From Minisyncoccota bacterium (lineage in GTDB: Bacteria; Patescibacteriota; Minisyncoccia; 2-02-FULL-40-12; GWA2-44-9), in assembly GCA_035524755.1 (NCBI GenBank), contig DATKOD010000003.1, forward strand, positions 2,206-66,205: DNA of 64,000 nucleotides, written 5' to 3'. How positions within the stretch are numbered: the first letter of the stretch is position 1; each line of letters starts with the position of its first letter. Positions 2,411 to 64,000 of this stretch are shown here, piece after piece. Made by a program: the position numbers and the translations under genes. Below the pieces are notes generated by a model that saw only the letters and a program-made list of their open reading frames with translations, was not told where the DNA came from and did not search any database.

Positions 2411-4231
2411 TCAACGCTCCACGAAGTCGACCTGGATACGGGCGGTATCAGCGGGTAAATGGCTCACCCAGAAGGGCCGGAGCGTCAGGGTCGCCTGCTG
2501 GATGTCGTCGCGGCCCCCCACGTACTGCTGGAATGCCGCGGTATCCATGCCTTTGACCGCCGTCGCCAGTCCGGCGGCATCCACCGGGTCATAGCCGTTG
2601 CCGGTCACATCCGCGGTGAACGTGAGCTTCTGCAGGGTATCATCGTACGCGACATTGCTGAGTTTCACGGTCAGTTGGTCTGCCTGAACGTTCAGGCGGT
2701 CCTTGCGCAGGATGGTGTCGGCGATGAGCTTGTCCAGATCCGCCTGACGGAACGCGACGGTTTTGAGCGTCACCGTGGCCGTCACCGATACCGAGGCCGC
2801 CGCGTCATCAGGCTGAGCGTCCGACGTGAAGGTCGGTGTGCTTCCGGGTGCGTCGTCGGCGATGCGCATGCCGCCGGTCTGTGATTTCAGAGCATCGGCG
2901 ATGAGCGCTGCGACATCGGACGTCGCGGCGGTCTTCGCGGCGTCGTAATCCGCTTGGGTCACGACCGCTGACGGACCGTTGGCGCCACCGGACATCGGTG
3001 CCGTCGAGACGCCATAGATCTTGGCCGCACGGTCGGTGTCGCCCTTCTCCACGAATGCGGCGATGGTGAACTTCCCGGCGGCGATGTTGTAATCGGTACC
3101 CGGCTTATCGGCGATGACGCTCACCGTGACACTGCCCGGGACGGCGCTTCCCTTGACGACGGTGGAGCCGGGGACCGTGACCGTGGACAGCGTGCGGAAT
3201 ACCAGCCCGTTCGGTGCGGTGAACCGTGTCGTCGCGATGAGCGTCTGCGGCGTCGAAGAGTATCCGTTGTACACTGTGAGCGTTCCTTTCGCTTTGGACG
3301 CGACATCGCGCGAACCGGTCGCGGCGACGCTGTGCGTAGCGGATTTGGACATCTCCAGGAGCTGCCCCGGAAGGTTTCCGAACGTAGCGTCGACGGAAGC
3401 GATCGAACCGGACACCGAGACGGCGATGTGCTCATCCACGGGCTGGCTGGCAGGGGCGACCGCGATGACCGCGGAGCCTGCGGTCAGGTATACGACGATG
3501 CCCACGATGAGCACCGCGCCGATCAGGAGTGCGATGACGGTCTTTCGCGTCAACCACGCGATAGATGCTCCCGGGAATCGCAGCCGGCGGAGCGGGGATG
3601 ACCGCGGCCGTGGGACGATCGTCCCCTGCTGTGCCGCACGATCGCGCCATACCTTATCGATGTAATCGAAGCTGTCCTCGGTCGGCGATACGGCCGTGGC
3701 CGGTTTTTTGGTCCGGACCATTGCGAGGTCCGCATCCGCTTCCACCTCCTGATTGGTGACCGGTTCTTCTCCCTCGGTCCCTTCCACATGGAATCCCGGA
3801 ACGATATCGCTCTCGGCATCGGCATCATCCGGAGATGTCACCTGCTGCCGTTCATCGGAGGTCAGCGGCACGTCCTCCTCGAACGCATCCTCGCTCGGGT
3901 CCTGGATTTCCGGATCGGACGGCGGTGGATAGGTCGCCGCAGTGACGGCCTTCGGTTTGCGTACCCGCTTGGTCGTTGCGGATACCATGACATTGAACCC
4001 GTGAGCCCGTGCCCGGGCGGCGATGTCCGAGTTCGTGGTCAGGATCGAGATCGTCTTGCCGGCAGATGACGCTTCACCGGCAAAAGCGGCGAAATGGTCG
4101 TCTGAACGGAATATCTTCCCGTTCTTCGGCAGGACGAAAATCACTTCGCCGGCAGGTGCGGACCGGAAAACATCCAGAATATCAGCCAAGGAGTCGTCCT
4201 TCAGGATATTGATTATCTTGATGCCGGCCAT
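2411..4231 (-). CDS. hypothetical membrane-anchored protein (N-terminal ~90-aa cytoplasmic domain, acidic linker, one TM helix, large Ser/Thr/Val-rich extracytoplasmic domain)
   Basis: 606-aa ORF with a single hydrophobic helix (VIALLIGAVLIVGIVVYLTAG). No family recognised. It sits where secY/adk/map usually precede infA. Confidence 0.7.
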   Translation of the reverse strand: MAGIKIINILKDDSLADILDVFRSAPAGEVIFVLPKNGKIFRSDDHFAAFAGEASSAGKTISILTTNSDIAARARAHGFNVMVSATTKRVRKPKAVTAATYPPPSDPEIQDPSEDAFEEDVPLTSDERQQVTSPDDADAESDIVPGFHVEGTEGEEPVTNQEVEADADLAMVRTKKPATAVSPTEDSFDYIDKVWRDRAAQQGTIVPRPRSSPLRRLRFPGASIAWLTRKTVIALLIGAVLIVGIVVYLTAGSAVIAVAPASQPVDEHIAVSVSGSIASVDATFGNLPGQLLEMSKSATHSVAATGSRDVASKAKGTLTVYNGYSSTPQTLIATTRFTAPNGLVFRTLSTVTVPGSTVVKGSAVPGSVTVSVIADKPGTDYNIAAGKFTIAAFVEKGDTDRAAKIYGVSTAPMSGGANGPSAVVTQADYDAAKTAATSDVAALIADALKSQTGGMRIADDAPGSTPTFTSDAQPDDAAASVSVTATVTLKTVAFRQADLDKLIADTILRKDRLNVQADQLTVKLSNVAYDDTLQKLTFTADVTGNGYDPVDAAGLATAVKGMDTAAFQQYVGGRDDIQQATLTLRPFWVSHLPADTARIQVDFVER

Positions 4232-9038: not shown

Positions 9039-10649
9039 TCAGGAAATTACGGCGCGGATACGCCGGACGCCGGCGGAGACCGATTCTTCCTTGGTGATGG
9101 TGAAACGGCCGATCTCGCCCGTGTGCGTCACGTGCGGACCGCCGCAGAACTCCTTGGAGAACGCGTTGAGCATGTCCGGACCGACGTAGTATACGTTCAC
9201 CGGGTCAGGGTATTTCTCCTTGAAGAAGAACAGGGCGCCGGTCCCTTCGGCTTCCTGTTTCGGCAGCGTGACCATGTTCACCGCGAGGTCGCGCTTGATG
9301 GCATCGTTGACGATCTCCTCCACCGCGGCTTTCTCTTCATCGGTGAGTTTACGTGGGAACGTGAAATCGAACCGTGTGCGCTCCGGAGTGATGTCCGAGC
9401 CCGCCTGATGCACCTCGGTGCCGAGGACCTCGCGCAGCGCCGCATGCAATAAGTGCGTCGCCGTGTGCAGGCGCGTGACCTTCTGCAGTTCCTCCGGATT
9501 CCCGGCTTTCAACTCTCCGGTGTCCAACAAGAGCCCGTGCCCGCCGAACTTCTTCTCCGCACCCGCACGTGACTTCGCCTGATGTTCTTTGAACTTCTCA
9601 TCGAATGCCCCGCGCGTCAGTGACCCGGCCCTGGCACCCGCGATGTCCTTGATGACTTCGTACGGCAGCCCGTAGCTCTCATAGAGCCTGAATGCCACTG
9701 CGGCATCTACTTCGGCGACGCGGCCGAGTTCCTTGATTCCCGTCCCGAGCGTCTTCAGGAATTTCTGTTTTTCTTGTTCGTACACCGGGCCAAGGTCGAC
9801 ATCCGAGCGTCCCGCCATGTATTCGAGTGTGACGATCCGGCGGATGAGCCGCCTGAGCACGTACCCGCGGTCTTTATTCGACGGTTCGAGCCCTTCGGCG
9901 ATCAATGCGACGATCGCGCGGGAATGATCCGCAATGATACGTCCGGCCCGGTCGGTCGGGTGATTCGGGAACAGGTCAGTCTCATAGATATTCGCCTTGC
10001 CCTGCACGACCATGGCGAGACGTTCCAGACCCATGCCGGTATCTATGCCGGGCGTCTCCAGCAGCCGCAATTCTTTCTCCTTCGTCTGGAAGTACTGATT
10101 GAACACGATGTTCCAGATCTCGATGCCGTTCACATACACTTCGGTCGTCGGACCGCAGGGGCCTTCATCCCCTGTCGGACCCCAGAAGTTATCGGCACGC
10201 CCGGCTTTCCGGACTTCGATGGATGGGTCGAGCGCCTTCCAGATGCGTTCAGAGTCATCGTCGGCGGGAACAGTGTCTTCGCCGCCGAATACTGATACGT
10301 AGTCGATGGTCAAACCCATCTCCCTCGTGATGAAGTCGTACGCCAGCCTGATGGCCTCGTCCTTGAAATAACCGCCGAAGGAGAAATTACCGAGCATTTC
10401 GAAGAACGTCAGGTGGCTTTCGTCGCCGACTTCATCGATGTCGGACGTCCGGACGCACTTCTGGATGGAAGCGACGTTCTTCGCGGGCGCCATCGCAGGG
10501 TTCGTGTAGTACGGCTTGAACTGCTGCATCCCGGCCGTCGTGAACAACACCGACGGGTCGTCGGGCAACAGTGAAGACGAAGCGACCCATGTGTGGCCGT
10601 GGGATTCCATGAAATTCCTGAACTTCTCGCGTATCTCCTGGTGCGTCAT
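9039..10649 (-). CDS. alaS: alanine--tRNA ligase, compact form (~536 aa, start at internal ATG)
   Basis: Catalytic-domain motifs are present (FTTAGMQQFKP, FFEMLGNFSFGGYFK), as are the editing-site motifs HTATHLLH and CGGPH. The C-terminal C-Ala domain is absent. Start chosen at MTHQEIREKF (M16 of the track ORF). Confidence 0.85.
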   Translation of the reverse strand: MTHQEIREKFRNFMESHGHTWVASSSLLPDDPSVLFTTAGMQQFKPYYTNPAMAPAKNVASIQKCVRTSDIDEVGDESHLTFFEMLGNFSFGGYFKDEAIRLAYDFITREMGLTIDYVSVFGGEDTVPADDDSERIWKALDPSIEVRKAGRADNFWGPTGDEGPCGPTTEVYVNGIEIWNIVFNQYFQTKEKELRLLETPGIDTGMGLERLAMVVQGKANIYETDLFPNHPTDRAGRIIADHSRAIVALIAEGLEPSNKDRGYVLRRLIRRIVTLEYMAGRSDVDLGPVYEQEKQKFLKTLGTGIKELGRVAEVDAAVAFRLYESYGLPYEVIKDIAGARAGSLTRGAFDEKFKEHQAKSRAGAEKKFGGHGLLLDTGELKAGNPEELQKVTRLHTATHLLHAALREVLGTEVHQAGSDITPERTRFDFTFPRKLTDEEKAAVEEIVNDAIKRDLAVNMVTLPKQEAEGTGALFFFKEKYPDPVNVYYVGPDMLNAFSKEFCGGPHVTHTGEIGRFTITKEESVSAGVRRIRAVIS

Positions 10650-42719: not shown

Positions 42720-45149
42720 TTAGGTGGTACGTTCGAAGCGCTGCCGGATTTCTGATTCCACTTCTTCCCGCGGACGACCGAATTTCGCATGGCTGGATTC
42801 GATGATGGCATCGCGAACGGCCGGATCGCCTTTCGCCAGTCCGATCTCCGCGAGACCGCGCATGCTCGTAGGCCGCGCAACCTGACTGTTCACCAGCATG
42901 GATACATACGCATGGAAATTATCGATGTTGGAAACATCGTACGGAGAGAACACCGGTTCGAACTTCGTCTTCAGGAGCGGCATCTCGGCATCCTCCGGAC
43001 TGACACGGTACACCACCATGGTGCCGACGTTGCCGAAGACCGAATCGCGGATGGCGTCGTCAAGCTGCTTGATGAACTGATGCGCCATGATGAGACATAG
43101 GCGATACTTCCGGGCTTCCGCGAGGATGACCGAAATGGAATCCGTCGTGAAGTTCTGGAATTCATCCATATACAGATAGTGATCGGGCAGGTCAGCGCGT
43201 TTCGTATCGCGCGCCAATGCCGCACGGCGTAGTTTGCCGGTGATGACCATGCCCAACAGGTTCGCGTTCATATCACCGATCTTCCCTTTCGACAGGTTAC
43301 AGATAAGTATCTTCCGGTTCTCGATGACATCCCTGAAATCGATGACGCTCGTCTGTTGGTTCACGATGGGCCGCAGAAAATCATTGGACGTGAACGTATC
43401 GATCTTGCTGGTGACATATCCGGCGAAATTCGCCAGCGACTGGTCGCCGGTCATCTTCGTGGCTTCCAATTCCCAGAACTGCTTCACGACCGTGTTGGAC
43501 TCGTGCGCCAATAGGTCATTGCGGAATGCCTCGTCGACGAACACCCGTGACATGTCGGCCAGCGTCGGTACCCGCCGCTCGTAGTTATCGAGCAACAGGT
43601 ATGTCGCATTCTTGAAATACCGCTCGAACATCGGTCCGCCGGTCTCCTTGAGGTCGTACAGCTTCGACATGATCTCGAATAATTCGTCGATGATGAGCGT
43701 TTTATCCTGCGGATTGGACGGGTCGAACTCGAGCATGTTCAATCCCAGCGGGAACGACGTATCGCCGGGGTTGAAATAGATGACGTCGTCGATCCGTTCC
43801 TTCGGGACGTTCGCTAACACCCACTCCGCGAACGAGCCGTGCGGATCCAGTACCGTAATGCCGTCCCCCGACTCCAAATCCTGGGGTATCATCGACTGCA
43901 TCGTGACCGTTTTTCCGGTTCCGGTCTGTCCGATGATGTACATATGACGCCGACGGTCTTCGCGCGCGATGCGAAGCAGCGTCGACTGGCCCCGGTATTC
44001 GTTCATGCCGAACGCGATGCCATGCTCGGGAAGACCCGGTGGCGGCTCGGCCGTCTTGAAATTCACGAACTTGACCTTCGGCATGACCGCCATGCCGGTG
44101 GGAAAGTGGTACACGCTGGTAAGTTCCTCCGCCGACAGCGTGACCGTCTGAGCGTCATCGAACAGGCGAAAGGCGAATTCGAATTCCAACCGCTCCAACG
44201 CCTTGCCGGACAGTTTCTTCACGTTGAATCCGTTCCGGTCAGCCGTCGTATATTGCGAGAACGCGCCGGCGACATCGTTCATGATGGCATCCGCACGTTC
44301 CGGTGAGGACGATGAGGCGAGGATGCGAATGTTGCAGTCGAACAGCGGGCGTGATGCCTTGGACTGCAACGCGGTGATGAGTTTCTGTTCGAATTCGGTG
44401 GCGACCTTCGGCGGTTCTTTGAGCGCGGCGTCCGAGTCTCTCTTTTCATCCTTCTTCGGCGGATGCTGGGCGAGTTTGAGCGCTTTATGGAAATCATTGC
44501 CCGCCTGCATCTGACGTGCGGTATCGGACGCGAGTTTCCGGATCCCGGCATGCGACGACGGCCGGACCGCGATCTGGATGGCGACACCTTCGCCCTCCTT
44601 CTCGATCCTGCCCATCGCGCTCACCAGCGGACCGAGCGGATCGCTGGGCAGCTCGGTATAGGTCAGTACCGGCAGGATGGGATCCTCACGCTGGGTCAGG
44701 TAGGCGCCCGCCGAGCCGCCCTGCGGATTGAAAATGTTGTAATCCGGGCTCCGTTGAACGGTGGCGGTCGGAAACACGCCGACCATCTGCTTCTCGAACT
44801 GATCAGCGAACTTCGACGGCACCGCGGCGTAGAAATGGATCTGCTCGCCGATATGGTGCACCGCCATTTCCAGCACCAGGTACGGATCGCCGAACAGGAA
44901 CTTGTTCCACCCTTTGATCTTCAGGTTTGCCACCGACGCATACAACTGCTCCATGACCGCGATGAGTTTGCGTTCGTCCTTCTCCCCTCCCTCGGCGGCG
45001 AACCGCGGCAGAAGGAACAGCAGCAGCTGCATGTCCAGAGAACGCGACAACGACGTACGCGAACGGAGACCGTTGACGACGATCAACGCGGCGACGGCCA
45101 GAATGACCGCGACCAACGCCAAGAGTACAAGCGTGATGACGGGCGACAT
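42720..45149 (-). CDS. membrane-anchored AAA-like ATPase of the VirB4/TraC/HerA (DUF87) superfamily
   Basis: 809 aa with an N-terminal TM. Walker A (IIGQTGTGKT) at ~residue 405, Walker B (LYMDEFQNF), and a HerA/VirB4-like AEARKYRLCLIMAHQFIKQL motif. It has a ~380-aa non-ATPase N-terminal region. Confidence 0.7.
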   Translation of the reverse strand: MSPVITLVLLALVAVILAVAALIVVNGLRSRTSLSRSLDMQLLLFLLPRFAAEGGEKDERKLIAVMEQLYASVANLKIKGWNKFLFGDPYLVLEMAVHHIGEQIHFYAAVPSKFADQFEKQMVGVFPTATVQRSPDYNIFNPQGGSAGAYLTQREDPILPVLTYTELPSDPLGPLVSAMGRIEKEGEGVAIQIAVRPSSHAGIRKLASDTARQMQAGNDFHKALKLAQHPPKKDEKRDSDAALKEPPKVATEFEQKLITALQSKASRPLFDCNIRILASSSSPERADAIMNDVAGAFSQYTTADRNGFNVKKLSGKALERLEFEFAFRLFDDAQTVTLSAEELTSVYHFPTGMAVMPKVKFVNFKTAEPPPGLPEHGIAFGMNEYRGQSTLLRIAREDRRRHMYIIGQTGTGKTVTMQSMIPQDLESGDGITVLDPHGSFAEWVLANVPKERIDDVIYFNPGDTSFPLGLNMLEFDPSNPQDKTLIIDELFEIMSKLYDLKETGGPMFERYFKNATYLLLDNYERRVPTLADMSRVFVDEAFRNDLLAHESNTVVKQFWELEATKMTGDQSLANFAGYVTSKIDTFTSNDFLRPIVNQQTSVIDFRDVIENRKILICNLSKGKIGDMNANLLGMVITGKLRRAALARDTKRADLPDHYLYMDEFQNFTTDSISVILAEARKYRLCLIMAHQFIKQLDDAIRDSVFGNVGTMVVYRVSPEDAEMPLLKTKFEPVFSPYDVSNIDNFHAYVSMLVNSQVARPTSMRGLAEIGLAKGDPAVRDAIIESSHAKFGRPREEVESEIRQRFERTT

Positions 45150-45550
45150 CAGGGAGCGGGCTCAACCTTCCGGCGTTCCAGCAGTTGCGAGTGGAATTCA
45201 TCGGCGAGCACGTCGTGCAGTGCATCGATGAGCGCGGGATTGCCGGAAGCGACAGCCTGGTCGATGGCGGCCTGCAGGCTCTGCGTGAACACCACGTTCA
45301 CCAGTTGCTGCACCGGGCCGGCCAACGCCGGGTCCTGCCAGCTCGGCGTGCCTGCCACGGGTTGCGATGCCGCTGGCGCCGGTTGGTAGTTCGGCACTGA
45401 CTGTTGGATGCGTTCGCCGACCGCCTCATGCACTTCTGCCCGTTCATACGGCGTCGATGCGTCAGCGCCCAGCTCCGCGCGTTTCTCCTGGAGCCTGCGT
45501 TCCAGGTCTGCGATCTCCGTCTCGATCGGACCGGTGGTGTTCTCAGCCAT
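45149..45550 (-). CDS. hypothetical protein (~133 aa)
   Basis: Its stop overlaps the ATPase start (ATGA). No recognised domain. Confidence 0.45.
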   Translation of the reverse strand: MAENTTGPIETEIADLERRLQEKRAELGADASTPYERAEVHEAVGERIQQSVPNYQPAPAASQPVAGTPSWQDPALAGPVQQLVNVVFTQSLQAAIDQAVASGNPALIDALHDVLADEFHSQLLERRKVEPAP

Positions 45551-45581
45551 GCACATCCATTGTAGCACACCCCGTGCTACA

Positions 45582-47144
45582 ATGAAGCCAATGAAGCGTA
45601 ACGAATTGCTGGTCTTGCTGTTGATCCTTGCGATCGCAAGTTGGTTCCGGCTCGCCGGTCTTCACGACACGCCGCCCGGGCTCTACCCGGACGAAGCCAT
45701 GGTCGGCAACGAGGCTATCAATGCGTGGAACACGAAGACGTTCTCCGTCTTCTACCCGTACAACAACGGAGAAGAAGGCCTGTACGCCGATATCGCATCG
45801 ATCCCAATCCACTTTCTCGGCAATACGGCCTTTTCGCTCCGGCTCGTGTCAGCCATCGCAGGCATCCTGACGGTCCTTGGCGTCTATCTTCTGGCGCGGC
45901 GGATGTTCGACTCGTGGGAGCTCGCCGCGATGGCCGCATTTTTCTTGGCGACCGGTTTTTGGCATGTGAATTTCTCACGTATCGGGTTCCGCGCCATTCT
46001 GGCACCGATGTTCGCCGTATGGGGATTCTATGAACTCTATAAGGGCCTGGAGACCAACCGGATATGGCATTGGGTGTTGGCGGGTGTCTCGTTCGGTTTG
46101 GGCATGTACACCTACATCGCGTTCCGCGTGATGCCGTTGGCCATCCTCTTGGTGTTGGGGGCATACTGGCTTGCCCTCAGTGCGGCGTTCTCGCACGGAA
46201 AGTTCGCCTTCGTCCGACATCAGCTTGCCGGCGGTGTGGCGGCGATGATCGGTGTCGGGATCCTGGTCTGTCTGCCGATCGCCGCATATTTCGTCGGTCA
46301 TCCGGCTGACTTCGTCGGACGCACATCGCAGATTTCCGTATTCAGCACGTCCAATCCCGTGATGACCGTCGCCGTCAATACGGTGAAGACGCTCGGCATG
46401 TTCTTCCTGGCTGGTGATTCCAACTGGCGTCATAACATCTCTGGCGCGCCTATCCTGTTCTGGCCGGTCGCCGCGCTCTTCGCCGCGGGTCTCGTGCACA
46501 CGCTTTGGCGGTTCTATGATTCGTGGCGTAAGCGGGGACATCCTGGCGTGGTACAGACACTTCTCCTGTCGTGGTTCCTCATCGGCCTTATCCCTGAAAT
46601 CTTCTCCAATGAGGGGATCCCCCATGCGTTGCGTTCCATCATTGACGCTCCCGTGGTCGCCATCATTTCTGCCGTCGGGCTGCACTGGCTGACCGTGTGG
46701 CTACGGAAATGGTATGCCATGCGTGACACGCACAAGATTTGTCTGCCCGGCCCCCGCGGCCACCGCTGGTGTGTCGGTGAGGGTTCGTTGGTCGTCGGCA
46801 TCTCCGTCATCTCGCTGTTGTTCGCAATCGGTGTCGCCGAAGCGAACCGCTATTTCGTGACGTGGGCGCAGGATCCGAACGTGCCGGGTGCATTCAACGA
46901 GAACTACGCGGACATCGCACGCCACATCAACAGTCTGCCCCCCGCAACACTGAAATACGTCATCGTCAATGCCGGTGGAGTGCTCGTCAATGGCATCCCG
47001 ATGCCCGCACAGACCGTCATGTACCTGACGGATACGTGGACTCCCGCGGATCAGGCGGCACATCACGTGGTCTATCTCCTGCCCGAACAGGTCGCGTCCA
47101 CACGCATCCCCCGTGGCGCTGCCGTGTTTTCCATCGATCCATAG
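45582..47144 (+). CDS. GT39-family glycosyltransferase (PMT/ArnT-like, polyprenyl-phosphate-sugar dependent)
   Basis: Start at MKPMKRNELLVLLLILAIASWFRLAG. Multi-TM, with the DE-like motif YPDEAM in the first loop. Confidence 0.8.
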   Translation: MKPMKRNELLVLLLILAIASWFRLAGLHDTPPGLYPDEAMVGNEAINAWNTKTFSVFYPYNNGEEGLYADIASIPIHFLGNTAFSLRLVSAIAGILTVLGVYLLARRMFDSWELAAMAAFFLATGFWHVNFSRIGFRAILAPMFAVWGFYELYKGLETNRIWHWVLAGVSFGLGMYTYIAFRVMPLAILLVLGAYWLALSAAFSHGKFAFVRHQLAGGVAAMIGVGILVCLPIAAYFVGHPADFVGRTSQISVFSTSNPVMTVAVNTVKTLGMFFLAGDSNWRHNISGAPILFWPVAALFAAGLVHTLWRFYDSWRKRGHPGVVQTLLLSWFLIGLIPEIFSNEGIPHALRSIIDAPVVAIISAVGLHWLTVWLRKWYAMRDTHKICLPGPRGHRWCVGEGSLVVGISVISLLFAIGVAEANRYFVTWAQDPNVPGAFNENYADIARHINSLPPATLKYVIVNAGGVLVNGIPMPAQTVMYLTDTWTPADQAAHHVVYLLPEQVASTRIPRGAAVFSIDP

Positions 47145-47147
47145 CCC

Positions 47148-48932
47148 ATGCGAAAATTCCTGACGCCTGCCGCAGCTGCGCTCTGTATCGTCATCGTCGC
47201 CACCGTACTGGCGATCCTGTCATCACGGGATGATGCACCCATCGTCGACGAGGTCCCGCACATCGGCGCCGGATATTCGTACGTGAGTCAGTTGGACTAC
47301 CGGCTCAATCCTGAACACCCGCCGTTGGTCAAGGACATCGCCGGATTTTCGGTCTCATTGTTGCACGTACCCGCATCAGTGTTCATGACGACGATGTGGA
47401 TGAACGATGTGAACGGGCAGTGGGAATTCGGCCGCAATCTCATTTTCCATTCCGGTTTGAATGCCGACGCCGTCAAGACGTTCGCGCGCACACCGGAAAT
47501 GATCTTCTTCCTGGTCGCATGCTGGATCGTGTGGCGGTGGATGTCGGAACGTTACAGCAAGGGTACGGCACTCCTGGCGGTCACGTTGTTGGCGTTCTCG
47601 CCGACCGTGTTGGCACATGCGCGCCTGGTGACCACCGATATGGCTGCGGCGACCGGTGCGGTCCTGGCGACGTATTTCTTCGTGCGGTTCCTCCGTCGTC
47701 CCGGCGCCTGGCCGTTCGTCTGGTCCACATTGACATTAGGCATCGCGCTGGTATGTAAATTCAACGATGCGCTTTTGGGACCGTTTTTCCTGCTTGTCGC
47801 GTTCCTCTGGGGACTGGACGGTCACATCGGTTCCTCACGCGCGTGGAAGAACGCAGCGCGTATGGTCGGGTATGCTGTCGCGATCGGCGCCGCATCGTTC
47901 ATTCTCTTCGTCTGGCCGCTGTACATCGTCCAGACGCTCCATGAGCCGATCGCGAAACAGCACGCCGATACCATCGCCATCCTCGGCGCGCATCCGACCG
48001 GCATCCTGCAGAAAGCCGTCGTCTGGGCGTCCGATAAACCCATCATCCGTGCCGCGGGCCACTGGGGTCTAGGACTATCGATGGTCGCTCAGCGCGAATC
48101 GGGCGGCAACACCATCTATTGGATGGGTCGAGTGGTCACCAGCGGCGGAGTCTGGTACTTCCCCATCATCTATCTCCTCAAAGAGCCGATCGCCTGGTGG
48201 ATTTTGATGGCATTTGCCGTCACTGCGTTTGCCTTCCATAGACGCCGCCACGCCGGCGAACCGAAGAACGGCACCTGGTGGGCACGGAATGCCGACGAAT
48301 GGGTGTGGGTTCTGTGGCTCATCATCTATTGGGCGGTATCCATGCAGAGCACGCTGAACATCGGCATCCGGCATCTATTGCCGGTCTATCCGTTCACCAT
48401 CATGCTGGTCGCCGGGCGCATCGGTGTCATGAATGACTGGCTGCGCCGTCACAACCCGGACATGGTCAAGCTGTTCACCGTCACTATCGGGCTGTTGGTC
48501 GGCTGGTATGTCTTCGAATCCGTGAGTGTGTATCCGTTCTACCTGACGTATTTCAACCAGATCGCCGGCGGACCGTCGGGTGGCTACCGGTATGTGACGG
48601 ATTCGAACCTGGACTGGGGGCAAGACATCAAACGCCTTGGTATCTACGTGGACGATAACCGTATCCGCGCAGTATCGCTGGACTATTTCGGATGGTCGGA
48701 CCCCTCCTACTATCTGGGATCTAAGTATGTTTGGACGACCGGTTCGGATTGGAAAGATGCGAAGGATTTCATCCGGCGGAACCGCTCCGACGGTTGGATC
48801 GCCGTGTCCGCGACATTCTTCCAGGAATCCGTCTTCCGTGCCGACGGCCAGGGCGCGTACCGATGGCTTTTGGATTACACGCCCGTCACCGTCATCGGCC
48901 ATTCCATCTTCGTCTGGCATATCACGAAGTAA
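47148..48932 (+). CDS. GT39-family glycosyltransferase, second paralog
   Basis: 594 aa, multi-TM, with an early DE motif (VDEVPH). Adjacent to the first paralog. Confidence 0.8.
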   Translation: MRKFLTPAAAALCIVIVATVLAILSSRDDAPIVDEVPHIGAGYSYVSQLDYRLNPEHPPLVKDIAGFSVSLLHVPASVFMTTMWMNDVNGQWEFGRNLIFHSGLNADAVKTFARTPEMIFFLVACWIVWRWMSERYSKGTALLAVTLLAFSPTVLAHARLVTTDMAAATGAVLATYFFVRFLRRPGAWPFVWSTLTLGIALVCKFNDALLGPFFLLVAFLWGLDGHIGSSRAWKNAARMVGYAVAIGAASFILFVWPLYIVQTLHEPIAKQHADTIAILGAHPTGILQKAVVWASDKPIIRAAGHWGLGLSMVAQRESGGNTIYWMGRVVTSGGVWYFPIIYLLKEPIAWWILMAFAVTAFAFHRRRHAGEPKNGTWWARNADEWVWVLWLIIYWAVSMQSTLNIGIRHLLPVYPFTIMLVAGRIGVMNDWLRRHNPDMVKLFTVTIGLLVGWYVFESVSVYPFYLTYFNQIAGGPSGGYRYVTDSNLDWGQDIKRLGIYVDDNRIRAVSLDYFGWSDPSYYLGSKYVWTTGSDWKDAKDFIRRNRSDGWIAVSATFFQESVFRADGQGAYRWLLDYTPVTVIGHSIFVWHITK

Positions 48933-59773: not shown

Positions 59774-60337
59774 CTAGGCGCTCATCAACTCGGCTTCCTT
59801 GCGCTTCTGGAGCTCGTCGAGCTTGCCGTTGTACTCATCCATGACCTTCTGGAGCGCGTCCTTTGCCTGACGGACTTCGTCTTCCCGTGCTTCCCCTTCC
59901 TTGACGGCATGCTGCACCTTCTTGAGGATCTCCTCACGCGAATGCCGCATGCGGATACGCGCCTCTTCGATCTTGGTTCCCAGCAGCTTGGTGAACTCCC
60001 TGCGGCGTTCCTCGGTCAATGATGGTACCGTCAGGCGTACGGACGTACCATCGACGACCGGTGCCAGTCCCAGCGATGAATCACGGATGGCTTTCTCGAT
60101 GGCGGCGAGCGCCTGCTTGTCCCACGGTTGGATGAGGATTTCGCGCGGGGTCGGCGTGGACACGGCGGCGACCTCCTTGATCTTCAACGATGTGCCGAGA
60201 TAATCGACGACCAGGTCGATGACCATGTCCGGGCTGGCGCGGCCGGTTCGGATCCCCGCGGCCTCGCTTTTCGCCCACTCCAGCGTCGCATCGAATTCCT
60301 TGCGCCGTTCCTTGATGAGTTCCTGGTACATCGGCAT
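59774..60337 (-). CDS. frr: ribosome recycling factor
   Basis: Start at MPMYQELIKERRKEFDATLEWAKSEAAGIRTGRASP; 187 aa in an RRF pattern. The track ORF is extended 5'. Confidence 0.85.
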   Translation of the reverse strand: MPMYQELIKERRKEFDATLEWAKSEAAGIRTGRASPDMVIDLVVDYLGTSLKIKEVAAVSTPTPREILIQPWDKQALAAIEKAIRDSSLGLAPVVDGTSVRLTVPSLTEERRREFTKLLGTKIEEARIRMRHSREEILKKVQHAVKEGEAREDEVRQAKDALQKVMDEYNGKLDELQKRKEAELMSA

Positions 60338-60344
60338 CAGTTTA

Positions 60345-61190
60345 TCATATATCCAGCAGGAAGGCTTCCAGTGCCAGACGACGGTTGAACTGCGGCTCAC
60401 GGAGGATACTGATGAGTTGTGCCAGTCCGCGCGCCACCGGCGCCAATGCGGGACGCTGTGCCAGGTGTGCATGGACCCATGTCAACCACCATTGGGCGAT
60501 GTCCGGCGCGTCCTCGTCGTCAGCGACCTTCTTGGCATACAGGAGACGCTCGGTGACACCGCCCTTCAGTGTCGCTTCCAGCGACGCGATGTGCCGGGCG
60601 ACCTTCGGAAGCTTACCCGCTTCAACGAGATTGACGGCGTATCCCGGACGGCCGGCGGCCACGACCGCCAACAGTTCGCGGTCATCCGCATCGAGCTTCA
60701 GACGGGCAAGGATCGGTTTCATACGGTCCGCCTCCAACGGCATGAAGTCCATCCGCTCACACCGGGAGCTGATGGTCGGCATGACCGCACCGGGGCGATC
60801 GGTGATGAGCAGGAATTTCGCGTATGTCGGCGGTTCTTCCAGTACCTTCAGAAGCGTATTCGCGGCCTCAGCGCCCAAACGGTCCGCATCGTCGATGACG
60901 ACCGTCTTGTACGTTCCGGCAGGACGGAAGACGACCCAGTGCTTCATGTCACGGACAGCCTCGATGGGAATGTCGTGCACGACGCCGTCCTTGTCGCGGT
61001 CCGGTGTCAGGACCATCGCGTCCGGTTCATACCCGGTCGCGATGAGGGCACGGACGACATCATCGGCGAACATCCGTTTGCCCACGCCCCCGGGTCCGGT
61101 CAACAGATATGCATGCGCCAACCGGCCCGTCGCGATGAGCCGTTCGATGAGCTCTTTCTGCCGTTCATGTCCGACGCATGACCAATCCAT
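60345..61190 (-). CDS. holB: DNA polymerase III subunit delta'
   Basis: 281 aa in a clamp-loader AAA+ pattern: AHAYLLTGPGGVGK, TISSRC. Confidence 0.8.
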   Translation of the reverse strand: MDWSCVGHERQKELIERLIATGRLAHAYLLTGPGGVGKRMFADDVVRALIATGYEPDAMVLTPDRDKDGVVHDIPIEAVRDMKHWVVFRPAGTYKTVVIDDADRLGAEAANTLLKVLEEPPTYAKFLLITDRPGAVMPTISSRCERMDFMPLEADRMKPILARLKLDADDRELLAVVAAGRPGYAVNLVEAGKLPKVARHIASLEATLKGGVTERLLYAKKVADDEDAPDIAQWWLTWVHAHLAQRPALAPVARGLAQLISILREPQFNRRLALEAFLLDI

Positions 61191-61206: not shown

Positions 61207-64000
61207 TTACGGCGTCGGGAGAACAGATGCGTCAGGGGTCGGGGTGTCGCTCGGTGAAACAGCCGGGGTATCCGTCGACGTCGGTGTCGGCATCGGCGTC
61301 TCGGTGTCGGTGGGCGCCGGCGCCGGACTTTCGGTCACAATCGGCGAATCAGTCGGAGTGGGGCTTGGCGTTGGTGTCGATGAAGGAGTCGGCAGAGGCG
61401 TAGCAGTATCGACGCGCGACCGTTGCAACAGATCATTGAGCTGGTCACGGTCAATGCACACGTCTTTCACGCAGAGCTGATCGGTCTGCACGGAGCCGAA
61501 CACGCCACGCACGGTTTGGATGAGTCCGTTGTCGATCGTGATGTTCCAGAGCGACGCGAAGAGCTGTTTGATGCCGTTCATCATGGTCCCCCAGAACGAA
61601 TCGGGAGCCGGCTGGTCGTGCGCCGCGGCAAGCTGTGATTGAATGGATGTCAGGTCGAGGTACTGCTCCTGGACCGGCGCCCAGTACGACGTGTTCACGA
61701 AGGTGAGAACGGTGGCCGACGTCGATCGTTCCAGCGAGATGCCGATCGACATGCCGGGTCCGGTCTGTTTCATCGCATAGCCGGGCTTGGTCGCAGAGAC
61801 CGTGAGGTGGTCACCGGGAGAAACCGAGCCGTTCTCATCGGAAAACTTCACGGGGACACGGCCGGCCATGGCGATGGGAACGGTACCCAGGATATGCTGG
61901 ACTGCCGCTCCGGTCCGGACTTCGGAGCCGGTGATGAGCACGGCGGGATTGGTGGACACGACGCCCAGAGGTGTCCCGGACGTCATTGCACGGACGACGA
62001 ACGAAGTCTCGGCAGGATCAGGCATGACGACATCGCCGGCAGAAAGAGAGCCGTCCGATGTCGGGTATGACTCAGCATAGTCGATACAACCGGATGACGG
62101 CGTATTGACCCCGGTGCACGTAGAGAGGGCACCATGAGAAAGGATGTTGCCGCGTAATGACAAGGTGCCGCCCATGGACCAGGAGGCGACCACGACACCG
62201 CTGGTGTTCGTGACGAGCATGATGCCATGAGCGTTATTGGCGGATGAGGACGCGGGAACGGTTATGCTGAAAATACTGCCGCCGGCCAACGAGGTGGCGG
62301 AGATGCTGGCGATACTGGTCGTGGTCAGAGTGTTCGCGGCGATTTCGAGTTTTGCATCCACGTTCGCCGTTCCGATGCCGACATAACCGGAAGAAGCGAT
62401 ACGCATGACTTCGGTGAGCGAGGTCGTCGGTGCGGTTTTGAATATGATGTTGCCGCCGCCTGCCGATGAACCGCCGGAAACGCCTCCATTGATGATGATG
62501 CTCCCGCCGGAACCCACTCCACTCGAACCGGCGCCGCCCGTACCGCCTTGGATCGTGAATGCCCCGCCCGCGCCGCCGAACTTGTTGGTACCCAAGGATG
62601 AACCGCCGCCCGTGCCGGCCGTCAGCGTGAATGCCCCGCCCGCGCCGCCGGTGACGGTCGTGCTGTTGCCCGAGGTAGAGCCACCGGTGCCTGCCGTGAT
62701 GTTGACCGCACCGCCGGTACCACCCTGGATGGCCGATATACCGCTTTCGTTCGCCAGACCACCGGGACCGGCATTGAGTGTGAACGTGCCGCCATTGCCG
62801 CTGATCGCGGTAGTCCCCGCAACTGTGGTCGTACCGCCCGTACCGAGCGTGATGGTCATCGCTCCACCGTTCCCGGCGGTCACGGTCGCCGAATTTGACG
62901 CGACATTGCCACCGTTGCCTGTCGTCAGTAGAAGGGAGCCGCCCACGCGGCCAATCTTTGAACTCGTGCCGCCATTGCCCGCAGTCAATGTGAGCGTGCC
63001 ACCGACACCGCCGGTGCCGGTGCCGGAACCGTTCGTGCCCAGGATGCTGACGCCGCCGCCGTCCGATGCCGAAGCAGCCGCTGAGCTGCCGCCCGTCAGC
63101 GTGAGCAGGCCACCGTCGCCATTATCGAAATTACCGATTCCCGTGCCGATACCGGCATTGCCTGCAGCGACCGTGAATGCGCCGCCTGCGCCGCCGATAT
63201 TGGTTCCGCCCAGAGATGCACCGCCACCCGCACCTGCGCGGATCGTGATGGCGCCGCCGTTGCCTCCCGTGTTCGTGCCGGACGTGGCGGCAGCAGACGC
63301 GCCGCCGGTGCCCGCTGTCCAGGCGAACAAACTTCCGTTGCCGCTCGTGTTATTCCCCGTACCCGCAATGGCGGCATTGCCGCCCGTGCCGCCACTGATC
63401 GTGAAGTCACCACCTTTACCGCCGTTCGCGACTGCGGTCGCATTGGCACCTGGAATTCCGCCATTACCCATCGTGAACGTGATGACGCCGCCGATGCCGC
63501 CGGTCTTGGTCGTCCCAGGGCCGTTGGAACCGGTGCCGCCCAGACCGGTGGTCACGGTCAATGCACCGCCTGATGCCGATGCGATGGAGTTACCGGCGGT
63601 GAGCACGATGTTGCCGCCAGCGCGATTGAGCAGGTTCGTACCGCTATTCGCAGTTCCAGCAGTGATGGAGACCTGGCCGCCGATGCCGCCGGTGCCGGTG
63701 CTGGAGCCGTTCCGCGCGGTTATAGCAACTGCACCGCCGGCGGAACCAGATGCGGCAGCCGAGGCGCCACCTTGGAGTGTCAAGAGTCCCCCGTTCCCCC
63801 CGATGCCGTTTGCACCGATTCCGGTTCCGACGCCGCCGGTGCCTGCAGAAATCACGAAATCACCGCCTGCGCCACCGGTATTCACGCCCGTGGCGTTCGC
63901 TGCCGAGCCGCCGGTACCGGCCACCCAGTTGTAAGCGGAGCCGACACCACCGGTGTTCGAGGCGGCACCGACGCCGTTCGCCACGCCGCCGGTGCCGCCC
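61207..64000 (-). CDS. giant glycine-rich repeat surface/fibre protein, partial (N-terminus beyond window end)
   Basis: More than 925 aa in the window, and the frame stays open to position 64000. It has hundreds of GGxGGx repeats (TGGAGGAFT, GNGGAITI and similar). After the repeats comes a ~300-aa non-repetitive beta-rich domain starting ...MRIASSGYVGIGTANVDAKLEI, then a Pro/Thr-rich C-terminal tail. Confidence 0.75.
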   Translation of the reverse strand, partial: GGTGGVANGVGAASNTGGVGSAYNWVAGTGGSAANATGVNTGGAGGDFVISAGTGGVGTGIGANGIGGNGGLLTLQGGASAAASGSAGGAVAITARNGSSTGTGGIGGQVSITAGTANSGTNLLNRAGGNIVLTAGNSIASASGGALTVTTGLGGTGSNGPGTTKTGGIGGVITFTMGNGGIPGANATAVANGGKGGDFTISGGTGGNAAIAGTGNNTSGNGSLFAWTAGTGGASAAATSGTNTGGNGGAITIRAGAGGGASLGGTNIGGAGGAFTVAAGNAGIGTGIGNFDNGDGGLLTLTGGSSAAASASDGGGVSILGTNGSGTGTGGVGGTLTLTAGNGGTSSKIGRVGGSLLLTTGNGGNVASNSATVTAGNGGAMTITLGTGGTTTVAGTTAISGNGGTFTLNAGPGGLANESGISAIQGGTGGAVNITAGTGGSTSGNSTTVTGGAGGAFTLTAGTGGGSSLGTNKFGGAGGAFTIQGGTGGAGSSGVGSGGSIIINGGVSGGSSAGGGNIIFKTAPTTSLTEVMRIASSGYVGIGTANVDAKLEIAANTLTTTSIASISATSLAGGSIFSITVPASSSANNAHGIMLVTNTSGVVVASWSMGGTLSLRGNILSHGALSTCTGVNTPSSGCIDYAESYPTSDGSLSAGDVVMPDPAETSFVVRAMTSGTPLGVVSTNPAVLITGSEVRTGAAVQHILGTVPIAMAGRVPVKFSDENGSVSPGDHLTVSATKPGYAMKQTGPGMSIGISLERSTSATVLTFVNTSYWAPVQEQYLDLTSIQSQLAAAHDQPAPDSFWGTMMNGIKQLFASLWNITIDNGLIQTVRGVFGSVQTDQLCVKDVCIDRDQLNDLLQRSRVDTATPLPTPSSTPTPSPTPTDSPIVTESPAPAPTDTETPMPTPTSTDTPAVSPSDTPTPDASVLPTP

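What the first reader, a model, noticed from the sequence alone, without database searches (positions are those of the whole stretch)
61207..64000. Giant glycine-rich repeat fibre protein with tail-fibre-like C-terminal domain and Pro/Thr tail, continuing beyond the window
More than 2.7 kb of GGxGGx-type repeats, mostly GGC/GGT codons, which makes the antisense strand read as a spurious 509-aa Pro-rich ORF. A ~300-aa non-repetitive domain follows; it begins with a motif (MRIASSGYVGIGTANVDAKLEI) resembling the neck motif of phage tail-fibre and bacterial fibre proteins. The gene ends in a PTPSSTPTPSPTP linker and lies directly downstream of holB. It is a probable surface fibre or adhesin, of the kind CPR episymbionts are thought to use for host attachment (inference). 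The C-terminal domain may be an intramolecular-chaperone/autoprocessing module.
Basis: partly seen in the sequence, partly recalled or inferred. Interest (0 to 1): 0.6.

Follow-up and report, generated by a model that had tools for sequence, protein, structure and literature searches.

The report
Surface fibre gene with self-cleaving assembly domain
This is the 3' part of a very long gene from an uncultured Paceibacterota (CPR) bacterium, encoding a glycine-rich fibre shaft followed by a phage-type domain predicted to help the fibre assemble and then cut itself off; it belongs to a huge unannotated protein family, and its full length and function are still unknown.

Summary
The gene is on the minus strand. 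Its stop codon is at 61207-61209 and its frame is open to the window edge. Glycine-rich repeats cover about 1.55 kb of the window (62449-63999), not 2.7 kb. They form 23 rungs of 16-26 residues with the pattern hydrophobic-T-hydrophobic-x-A/G-G-x-G-G...G-G-x-G-G. The gene lies upstream of holB, not downstream. A sister contig adds 501 more open codons, so the protein has at least 1431 residues. Every assembly breaks inside the repeats, so the N-terminus is unknown.

- A family profile aligns DYAE (residues 640-643) exactly onto the gp12 S691|D692 cleavage site.
- Pfam does not detect the domain in this protein.
- The domain family has about 29,800 clusters. Most are giant exported proteins, and the sampled named members are mainly CPR 'hypothetical proteins'.

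The shaft module is shared with genuine phage tail fibres.

Best reading: an exported, probably trimeric cell-surface fibre whose C-terminal domain drives assembly and is probably cleaved off. Adhesion to a host is inference only. I class it as a new member of a known kind, of moderate interest.

The parts
61207..64000 (-). 3' part (930 codons plus stop) of the fibre gene. It is open at the window edge, and the true length is at least 1431 aa.
   Evidence: Sister contig L002 adds 501 codons and is still open.
62449..63999 (-). Glycine-rich shaft (residues 1-517). It has 23 rungs of 16-26 aa, each with a short hydrophobic-T-hydrophobic-x-(A/G)G strand flanked by GGxGG turns.
   Evidence: Composition and codons. 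Rung parsing. DNA repeat family D1. AF2 places a strand at each rung, but only at pLDDT 30-60.
62320..62448 (-). Shaft C-terminal cap and neck (residues 518-560): IIFKTAPTTSLTEVMRIASSGYVGIGTANVDAKLEI.
   Evidence: The same cap is present in phage tail fibre P0091 and other shaft homologues. PHROG 9942 'tail fiber protein', E 1.1e-6.
62083..62319 (-). Beta-rich segment before the predicted cleavage site (residues 561-639), including a conserved C-x10-C pair. It would be the distal tip if cleavage occurs.
   Evidence: Alignment of close homologues. AF2 strands at pLDDT 50-80. The role as tip is inference.
62071..62082 (-). DYAE motif (residues 640-643). The predicted scissile bond is I639|D640.
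   Evidence: It aligns in register with phi29 gp12 S691|D692-F-A-E695, the first residues of the crystallised C-terminal fragment 3gqh. A and E are invariant and D is at least 90% conserved in alignment A2. DxAE is present in 267 of 285 domain copies.
61645..62082 (-). Peptidase_G2-like auto-chaperone core with a beta-tulip fold (residues 640-785).
61405..61644 (-). Helical extension plus small hairpins with a C-x4-C pair (LCVKDVCIDRDQLNDLL), residues 786-865.
   Evidence: AF2 secondary structure. Conserved in close homologues. Function unknown.
61210..61404 (-). Pro/Thr-rich low-complexity C-terminal tail (residues 866-930). It has no LPXTG motif and no hydrophobic anchor.
   Evidence: Similar tails are present in homologues P0001-P0008.
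62405..63934 (+). Spurious antisense 509-aa Pro-rich ORF.
   Evidence: All homology evidence lies on the minus-strand frame.
60345..61190 (-). holB-like DNA polymerase III delta' gene. It starts 16 nt downstream of the fibre gene's stop codon, in the same orientation (context).
   Evidence: The same junction appears in five independent contigs.

Best explanation
The gene encodes a very long (at least 1431 aa) cell-surface fibre of a Paceibacterota (CPR) bacterium. It is built from three kinds of module.
1. A glycine-rich shaft of about 20-aa rungs. This module is also used by genuine phage tail fibres. Its repeat pattern fits a beta-solenoid, but its fold is unsolved.
2. A conserved shaft cap and 'GIGT' neck, followed by a small beta-rich tip.
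3. A Peptidase_G2-type auto-chaperone (beta-tulip fold, as in domain D4 of phi29 tailspike gp12), followed by a helical extension and a Pro/Thr tail.

Proposed mechanism, by analogy with gp12:
- After export, three chains associate through the G2-like domains.
- This sets the register and nucleates folding of the repetitive shaft from the C-terminus towards the N-terminus.
- The chain then cleaves itself at I639|D640 (DYAE), shedding the C-terminal fragment of about 290 aa and exposing the tip.

What is shown: the domain identity and the in-register motif.
What is inferred: export, trimerisation, cleavage and any adhesive role.
For: - Sequence: a family profile hits gp12 (6qz9, 3gqh) at E 0.007-0.014, starting exactly at S691|D692. 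Seven of 46 homologues hit Pfam Peptidase_G2. DxAE is conserved.
- Shaft shared with phages: the Gly-rich module and its cap recur in P0091, a tail-fibre gene next to tail and lysozyme genes on a phage contig. The neck hits PHROG 'tail fiber protein'.
- Cellular and exported: the gene sits 16 nt upstream of holB-frr-rseP-proS in five assemblies. The family has 29,811 clusters; the best hits are 800-5766 aa, and 87 of the 121 that start with Met (of 149 analysed) carry an N-terminal hydrophobic signal or anchor. The homologues whose context I read are chromosomal: a Saccharibacteria MAG and a contig of unidentified organism that carries cytochrome oxidase genes.
- Literature: gp12 D4 is a tandem beta-tulip auto-chaperone, and homology to bacterial adhesins and PBCV-1 Vp260 was noted earlier (bioRxiv 10.1101/216911).
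Against: - Pfam, NCBIfam and PHROGs give no G2 hit for this protein itself. The sequence link to gp12 is weak (E about 0.01) and covers only the first 58 residues or so.
- In the best-scoring relatives the domain occurs 2-3 times and internally. That fits poorly with a simple 'terminal chaperone, cleaved once' model.
- The monomer AF2 model of the shaft has low confidence (pLDDT 30-60), and the shaft has no PDB relative, so its fold and oligomeric state are unknown.
- The N-terminus and upstream genes could not be recovered, so export is inferred from relatives only.
- gp12 needs ATP to release its cleaved domain (from memory of Xiang et al. 2009). That would not be available outside the cell.
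Confidence: 0.62

Rival explanations
1. The G2-like domain is not shed. It stays as a permanent trimerisation or structural node (beta-tulip, as in phage capsid decoration proteins), and the C-terminal extension and Pro/Thr tail are part of the mature fibre.
For: - The top 149 relatives carry 2-3 internal copies, with long structured sequence after them.
- The extension and tail are conserved in close homologues.
Against: - The DxAE motif at the gp12 cleavage position is conserved in 267 of 285 copies, with A and E invariant in A2. That would be unexpected for a purely structural role.
- gp12 D4 is the best structural match by a clear margin.
Confidence: 0.22
2. The gene is the tail fibre or tailspike of a prophage or phage-derived particle whose other genes lie beyond the contig break. 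It is not a cellular surface protein.
For: - The shaft module, the cap and neck, and the G2 domain all have phage counterparts.
- The upstream sequence is unknown in every assembly.
Against: - The gene is co-oriented with holB-frr-rseP-proS and only 16 nt from it, with no lysis or integrase genes on the visible side.
- At 1431 aa or more, with the domain family dominated by giant signal-peptide proteins whose sampled named members are mainly from CPR genomes, it fits a cellular protein.
- The homologues whose context I read are chromosomal.
Confidence: 0.12
3. The repeat region is an assembly artefact or a decaying pseudogene.
For: - All contigs end inside the repeats.
- Contig L002 has a 477-nt x 2.1 tandem at 77% identity.
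- Contig L011 looks chimeric.
Against: - Five independent assemblies agree at 98.9-100% over the shared sequence.
- The frame stays open for 1431 codons.
- The in-window repeats are diverged (61-85%), so they are not collapsible.
- Homologous shafts exist elsewhere.
Confidence: 0.04

Closest known systems
Bacillus phage phi29 pre-neck appendage (tailspike) gp12, domain D4 auto-chaperone (MEROPS G2, Pfam PF11962; PDB 3gqh, 3suc, 6qz9)
   Same: - The D-x-A-E motif aligns with the S691|D692 cleavage site.
- It sits C-terminal to a fibrous beta-rich shaft.
- Its beta-tulip fold acts in trimer assembly.
   Different: - Only about 18% identity, and the Pfam model does not detect this protein.
- The host protein is a cellular CPR protein of at least 1431 aa, not a virion protein.
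- It has an additional helical/Cys extension and a Pro/Thr tail.
- The shaft is glycine-rich rungs rather than gp12's pectate-lyase-like beta-helix.
- Cleavage is untested.
Unannotated family of giant exported proteins, sampled members mostly from Patescibacteria/CPR, carrying the same domain (P0096-P0244; for example Woesebacteria MBN1168904.1 and Patescibacteria MFA5413208.1)
   Same: - Same G2-like core at E down to 1e-97 with profile A2.
- Similar long fibrous architecture.
- All are named 'hypothetical protein'.
   Different: - Those members usually have 2-3 domain copies and other shaft types.
Phage tail fibres with the same Gly-rich shaft and a K1-lyase_C tip (for example P0091 on contig JAWVHB010001217.1)
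   Same: - Same multi-rung super-repeat and the same shaft cap, GG.IIF.TA.TTSL.E..R.
- P0091 lies between tail genes and a lysozyme gene on a phage contig.
   Different: - These fibres end in K1-lyase_C, Mtd_N or Peptidase_S74 domains rather than a G2 domain.
- Pairwise BLAST after composition correction is not significant (E 0.17). The link rests on HMMER scores and on the non-low-complexity cap.
Endosialidase / T5 pb1-type C-terminal intramolecular chaperone (Peptidase_S74, PF13884)
   Same: Same concept: a C-terminal domain that trimerises a fibre and is then auto-cleaved. One shaft homologue (P0093) carries it.
   Different: It is a different fold and catalytic type (from established knowledge). 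There is no S74 match in this protein.
Glycine-rich repeat proteins (mycobacterial PE_PGRS, RTX beta-roll, collagen)
   Same: High Gly content and GGxGG-like turns.
   Different: - No sequence match to any of them in Pfam or PDB.
- The rungs contain a regular hydrophobic-T-hydrophobic strand.
- There is no GXY periodicity and no RTX Asp ladder.
- The resemblance is compositional only.

Membership tests
Peptidase_G2 (PF11962 / MEROPS G2, phi29 gp12 D4) | Sequence match to the Pfam model above its gathering score | tested here: not met
   There is no Pfam hit for the whole protein or for the C-terminal 348 aa, even at E up to 10. Seven of 46 homologues do match at E up to 0.01, with a best E of 1.7e-7. 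Two of the strongest family members (P0096, P0099) also give no hit.
Peptidase_G2 (PF11962 / MEROPS G2, phi29 gp12 D4) | gp12-D4-like beta-tulip fold | tested here: met
   [not shown]
Peptidase_G2 (PF11962 / MEROPS G2, phi29 gp12 D4) | Asp and Glu of the cleavage motif at the domain start (gp12 S691|D692...E695) | tested here: met
   The profile alignment puts D640-Y-A-E643 on D692-F-A-E695, at residue 1 of the crystallised fragment. The motif is conserved across the family. The catalytic role of these residues is recalled from Xiang et al. 2009, which I could not read here.
Peptidase_G2 (PF11962 / MEROPS G2, phi29 gp12 D4) | Autocatalytic cleavage after trimerisation, with release of the domain | not testable with these tools
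   This needs biochemistry or proteomics.
Peptidase_S74 intramolecular chaperone (PF13884) | Match to the S74 model | tested here: not met
   No hit. There is also no S74-type hit among the structural matches.
Phage tail fibre (virion component) | Located in a phage structural module or prophage | tested here: inconclusive
   The downstream side is housekeeping genes. The upstream side is missing from all contigs. tblastn against 50,697 phage records found nothing, but the low-complexity filter was on.
Exported cell-surface fibre / fibrillar adhesin | N-terminal signal peptide or membrane or wall anchor | not testable with these tools
   The N-terminus was not recoverable. Relatives support export: 87 of the 121 best hits that start with Met (of 149) have an N-terminal hydrophobic segment, and P0014 and P0251 have signal peptides. 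There is no C-terminal LPXTG or TM anchor.
Collagen / PE_PGRS / RTX glycine-rich repeats | Family-specific repeat (GXY triplets, PGRS GGAGGX runs, or the GGxGxDxUx nonapeptide) | tested here: not met
   No Pfam or PDB match. The rung pattern is different.

The most novel reading that the evidence does not exclude
The Gly-rich rung module, with its conserved cap, is a structurally uncharacterised fibre-shaft fold with no Pfam family, no PDB relative and no confident monomer model. It circulates between phage tail fibres and cellular surface proteins. Under this reading, the Paceibacterota cell has assembled a complete phage-style receptor-binding fibre (shaft, neck, tip and self-cleaving G2 chaperone) as a chromosomal gene next to core replication and translation genes, and uses it to attach to its host. 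The many relatives with 2-3 internal G2-like domains would then be 'polyprotein' fibres, self-cut into several pieces.
Probability: 0.25. Interest if true: 0.65.

Novelty: new member of a known kind. Interest (0 to 1): 0.4.

Why it matters
CPR/Patescibacteria are thought to live attached to other cells, and adhesins are essential for epibiotic growth in the one system that can be manipulated genetically (Cell 2023, PMC10633639). Yet most of their large surface proteins are annotated 'hypothetical'.

This locus shows that a very large family is built around a phage-type auto-chaperone domain that Pfam largely misses. The family has about 29,800 clusters at 50% identity; the best-scoring members are 0.8-5.7 kaa.

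It also shows that a glycine-rich shaft module is shared with real phage tail fibres. Together these give a concrete, testable processing site (I639|D640). They also give a profile that could re-annotate thousands of proteins.

The finding does not reveal a new kind of system.

Tried and rejected
- Direct Pfam, NCBIfam and PHROGs scans of the whole protein gave nothing useful. The only hits (rad23, phrog_15511) fall on the low-complexity Pro/Thr tail.
- The Pfam failed because of a frame error. Searches used an out-of-frame reference (62320-63100) and are void. They were redone in frame.
- A PDB sequence search with the shaft found no relatives.
- A whole-protein AF2 monomer model gave the shaft only pLDDT 30-60, so I make no fold claim.
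- Attempts to recover the N-terminus all failed.
  - The look-up of encoding contigs on holB and proS returned only contigs that end in the repeats.
  - The genome-contig scan gave only distant relatives, at most 49% identity.
  - The metagenome-contig scan returned the same contig plus a chimeric 1.6-kb contig.
  - The NCBI source contig is 66,460 bp but could not be fetched.
- tblastn of the shaft against INPHARED phages found no match, probably because of low-complexity masking.
- The afdb50 fold library was unavailable.
- Xiang et al. 2009 (the gp12 structure paper) is not held, so the catalytic-residue details are from memory.
- Collagen-like, PE_PGRS, RTX and Chlamydia Pmp (GGA[ILV]) readings were considered and rejected. 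There is no model match, and the rung pattern differs.
Full report
**What is there**

The finding lies on the minus strand. The frame ending at TAA 61207-61209 is open all the way to base 64000, giving 930 codons in the window. The ORF listing shows a 925-aa ORF only because it starts at the first GTG.

By composition the product has three parts:
- Residues 1-531: 32% Gly, 15% Thr, 14% Ala. Of 171 Gly codons, 149 are GGC or GGT.
- Residues 532-865: ordinary composition.
- Residues 866-930: 30% Pro and 26% Thr.

The 509-aa Pro-rich ORF on the plus strand (62405-63934) is the mirror image of the GGN codons. All homology evidence is on the minus frame. The GC skew changes sign at about 62250, as this layout predicts.

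**The repeats**

The Gly-rich part parses into 23 rungs of 16-26 residues. Each starts with a short strand such as FTLTAG, ITIRAG or LTLTGG, followed by G-x-GG, a variable Gly/Ser/Thr/Asn/Ala loop, and GG-x-GG.

At the DNA level there are 14 copies of a 46-nt unit spaced 72-78 nt apart, at only 61-85% identity. There are no long perfect tandems inside the window. The in-window repeats are therefore diverged and real.

**The gene is longer than the window**

Looking up the neighbouring holB protein returned five independent contigs (ENA, JGI, Logan) with the same junction. The window is 98.9-100% identical to them. The three contigs that reach well into the fibre gene (L001-L003) end inside its repeats.

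The longest, L002, adds 501 codons and is still open, so the protein has at least 1431 aa with a Gly-rich region of at least 1034 aa. That extra part contains a 159-aa (477-nt) higher-order repeat, 2.1 copies at 77% identity. This explains why short-read assemblies break there.

Scans of genome and metagenome collections did not recover the 5' end. The N-terminus and the upstream neighbours remain unknown.

**Context and organism**

The neighbouring proteins are deposited as Candidatus Paceibacterota bacterium MAG proteins HUO75428-31, on a 66,460-bp contig. holB starts 16 nt downstream of the fibre gene's stop. It is followed by frr, rseP, proS, mreBCD, PBP2 and greA. The rest of the window is ordinary chromosome.

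**The C-terminal domain**

Pfam, NCBIfam and PHROGs see no domain in this protein. A database search with residues 518-865 found 46 relatives. The named ones are mostly from CPR MAGs, and two of them are annotated with PF11962 Peptidase_G2. Scanning all 46 individually, seven hit Peptidase_G2, with a best E of 1.7e-7.

The conserved core runs from D-[YFL]-A-E to ...FVN.SYW.
- Sequence link to gp12: a profile of the core hits phi29 gp12 (6qz9, 3gqh) at E 0.007-0.014. The alignment starts exactly at S691|D692, which is residue 1 of the crystallised 'C-terminal fragment'. That places the window's D640-Y-A-E643 (62071-62082) on gp12's D692-F-A-E695.
- Viral structures: against BFVD the best hits are 'preneck appendage protein', tail fibre proteins and chlorovirus proteins.

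This agrees with the literature. gp12 D4 is a tandem beta-tulip auto-chaperone needed for trimer assembly, and its homology to bacterial adhesins and PBCV-1 Vp260 was already noted (bioRxiv 10.1101/216911).

S74 is not found.

**Size and nature of the family**

An exhaustive search with the core profile found 29,811 clusters at E up to 0.001 and 23,926 at E up to 1e-10. Among the best 149 analysed:
- Lengths are 485-5766 aa, with a median of about 1900 aa.
- Of the 121 that begin with Met, 87 have an N-terminal hydrophobic signal or anchor.
- 85 share a [YF]Q[GA][RK] motif just after it.

Those with names are 'hypothetical protein' from Woesebacteria, Sungbacteria and Patescibacteria. Pfam finds nothing in two of the strongest members.

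Unexpectedly, all 149 carry two or three copies of the domain, often internal. DxAE is present in 267 of 285 copies (examples). That ranking favours multi-copy proteins, so it overstates how common they are. Even so, the domain is clearly not always a terminal one-off module.

**The shaft module**

A search with the Gly-rich part found 49 relatives, with a best E of 1.8e-25. Many are 600-920-aa proteins on 30-60-kb contigs. These carry K1-lyase_C, PF18454 (recalled from memory as Mtd_N; not checked here) or Peptidase_S74 at their ends.

One of them, P0091, sits between tail genes and a lysozyme gene on a contig with a phage DNA polymerase, primase and HNH endonuclease. It is a genuine tail fibre.

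These proteins share two things with the window protein:
- A multi-rung super-repeat: GG.AAA.AG.AGG.V...G..GSSTG.GG.GG..T...G.AGG..(T)V.(R).GG...
- A non-low-complexity shaft cap: GG.IIF.TA.TTSL.E..R.

The cap and neck of the window protein also hit PHROG 9942 'tail fiber protein' at E 1.1e-6.

There are caveats. Pairwise BLAST with composition correction is not significant (E 0.17). The shaft has no PDB relative. A monomer AF2 model of all 930 residues puts a strand at each rung, but only at pLDDT 30-60. I therefore make no claim about the shaft fold beyond 'repetitive, beta-solenoid-like, probably oligomeric'.

A complete cellular protein from a Terriglobales MAG (P0251) combines a signal anchor, collagen triplets, GIGT necks and this shaft, with no G2 domain. 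The combination seen here looks like one mosaic among many.

**Most likely mechanism**

This is by analogy with gp12. It fits conserved Cys pairs that suggest an extracytoplasmic location: C-x10-C just before DYAE, and C-x4-C in the extension.

The protein is exported. Three chains are brought into register by the G2-like domains, which nucleate folding of the repetitive shaft. The chain then cleaves at I639|D640, shedding residues 640-930 and leaving residues 561-639 as the distal tip.

- Shown: domain identity, the in-register motif, family-wide export signals and the chromosomal context.
- Inferred: export of this particular protein, trimerisation, cleavage and any role in host attachment. 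Adhesins are essential for epibiotic growth in Saccharibacteria (PMC10633639), but nothing here tests adhesion.

**Rival explanations**

- Permanent node (0.22): the domain is retained as a structural trimerisation node. The multi-copy internal domains and the decoration-protein fold support this.
- Prophage tail fibre (0.12): the rest of the prophage would lie beyond the contig break. Upstream sequence is unknown, but the tight operon-like linkage to holB and the cellular family argue against it.
- Assembly artefact (0.04): five concordant assemblies and a 1431-codon open frame argue against it.

**Novelty and interest**

This is a new member of a known kind: a fibre with a C-terminal G2-type auto-chaperone. 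That class was already noted to include bacterial adhesins.

Three things are worth recording. The unannotated family is very large and largely invisible to Pfam. The Gly-rich shaft module is shared with phage tail fibres and is structurally uncharacterised. Multi-copy internal G2-like domains are frequent among the best-scoring members.

Interest is moderate, at 0.4.

Noticed in passing
Proteins P0096-P0244 (for example P0097: residues 2579-2711, 3236-3368, 3856-3991): All 149 of the best-scoring relatives analysed carry 2-3 copies of the G2-like domain, often internal and spaced about 250-650 aa apart. DxAE is present in 267 of 285 copies. This raises the possibility of multi-site self-processing ('polyprotein' fibres), or of a non-cleaving structural role.
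   Followed up: partly
L016:6589-11497 (contig CAZENF010000003.1); N-termini of P0138, P0228, P0252: Some giant family members begin with a cytoplasmic segment that looks like a helix-turn-helix. One cluster member is named 'helix-turn-helix domain-containing protein'. In L016 a TM helix follows only at about residue 370, before the extracellular fibre. The L016 gene is split by an N-gap in the scaffold.
   Followed up: no
window 45408-47144 (+) and 47148-48932 (+): Two tandem PMT_2 (GT39-like, protein O-mannosyltransferase family) genes. They could glycosylate Ser/Thr/Pro-rich tails such as the one on the fibre protein. This is speculation.
   Followed up: no
window 42720-45149 (-): An 809-aa protein with TrwB/VirD4-type type IV secretion coupling-protein domains, consistent with the T4SS reported in Patescibacteria.
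   Followed up: no
L008 (JAMCXF010000035.1, Candidatus Pacearchaeota archaeon MAG), match at 10001-10549: A DPANN archaeal MAG encodes a relative of the G2-like domain (32% identity over residues 75-262 of the query). This hints that the family is shared across ultrasmall episymbionts of both domains, or that the MAG is contaminated.
   Followed up: no
L002:846-1823: A 477-nt (159-aa) higher-order repeat, 2.1 copies at 77% identity, lies just upstream of the part of the gene in the window. It is the probable reason that every short-read contig ends in this gene.
   Followed up: yes
P0251 / L014:27-2606 (Terriglobales MAG DATCCF010000252.1): A complete 859-aa cellular protein with a signal anchor, collagen-like GXY triplets, GNVGIGT necks and the same Gly-rich shaft module, but no G2 domain. 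It lies next to purine biosynthesis genes.
   Followed up: partly
window residues 627/638 (C-x10-C, about 62086-62121) and 'LCVKDVCI' (within 61405-61644): Two Cys pairs conserved in close homologues, one immediately before the predicted cleavage site and one in the C-terminal extension. They suggest disulfides, and hence an extracytoplasmic location.
   Followed up: no
window 59774-60472 (-): The mechanical ORF for the ribosome recycling factor (232 aa) overlaps the 3' end of holB. Gene callers on sister contigs use a downstream start, giving 185 aa, so the overlap is probably not real.
   Followed up: no
L011 (OFRO01015561.1): A 1.6-kb metagenome contig has a related Gly-rich ORF that runs into unrelated sequence. 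It is probably a chimeric assembly.
   Followed up: partly
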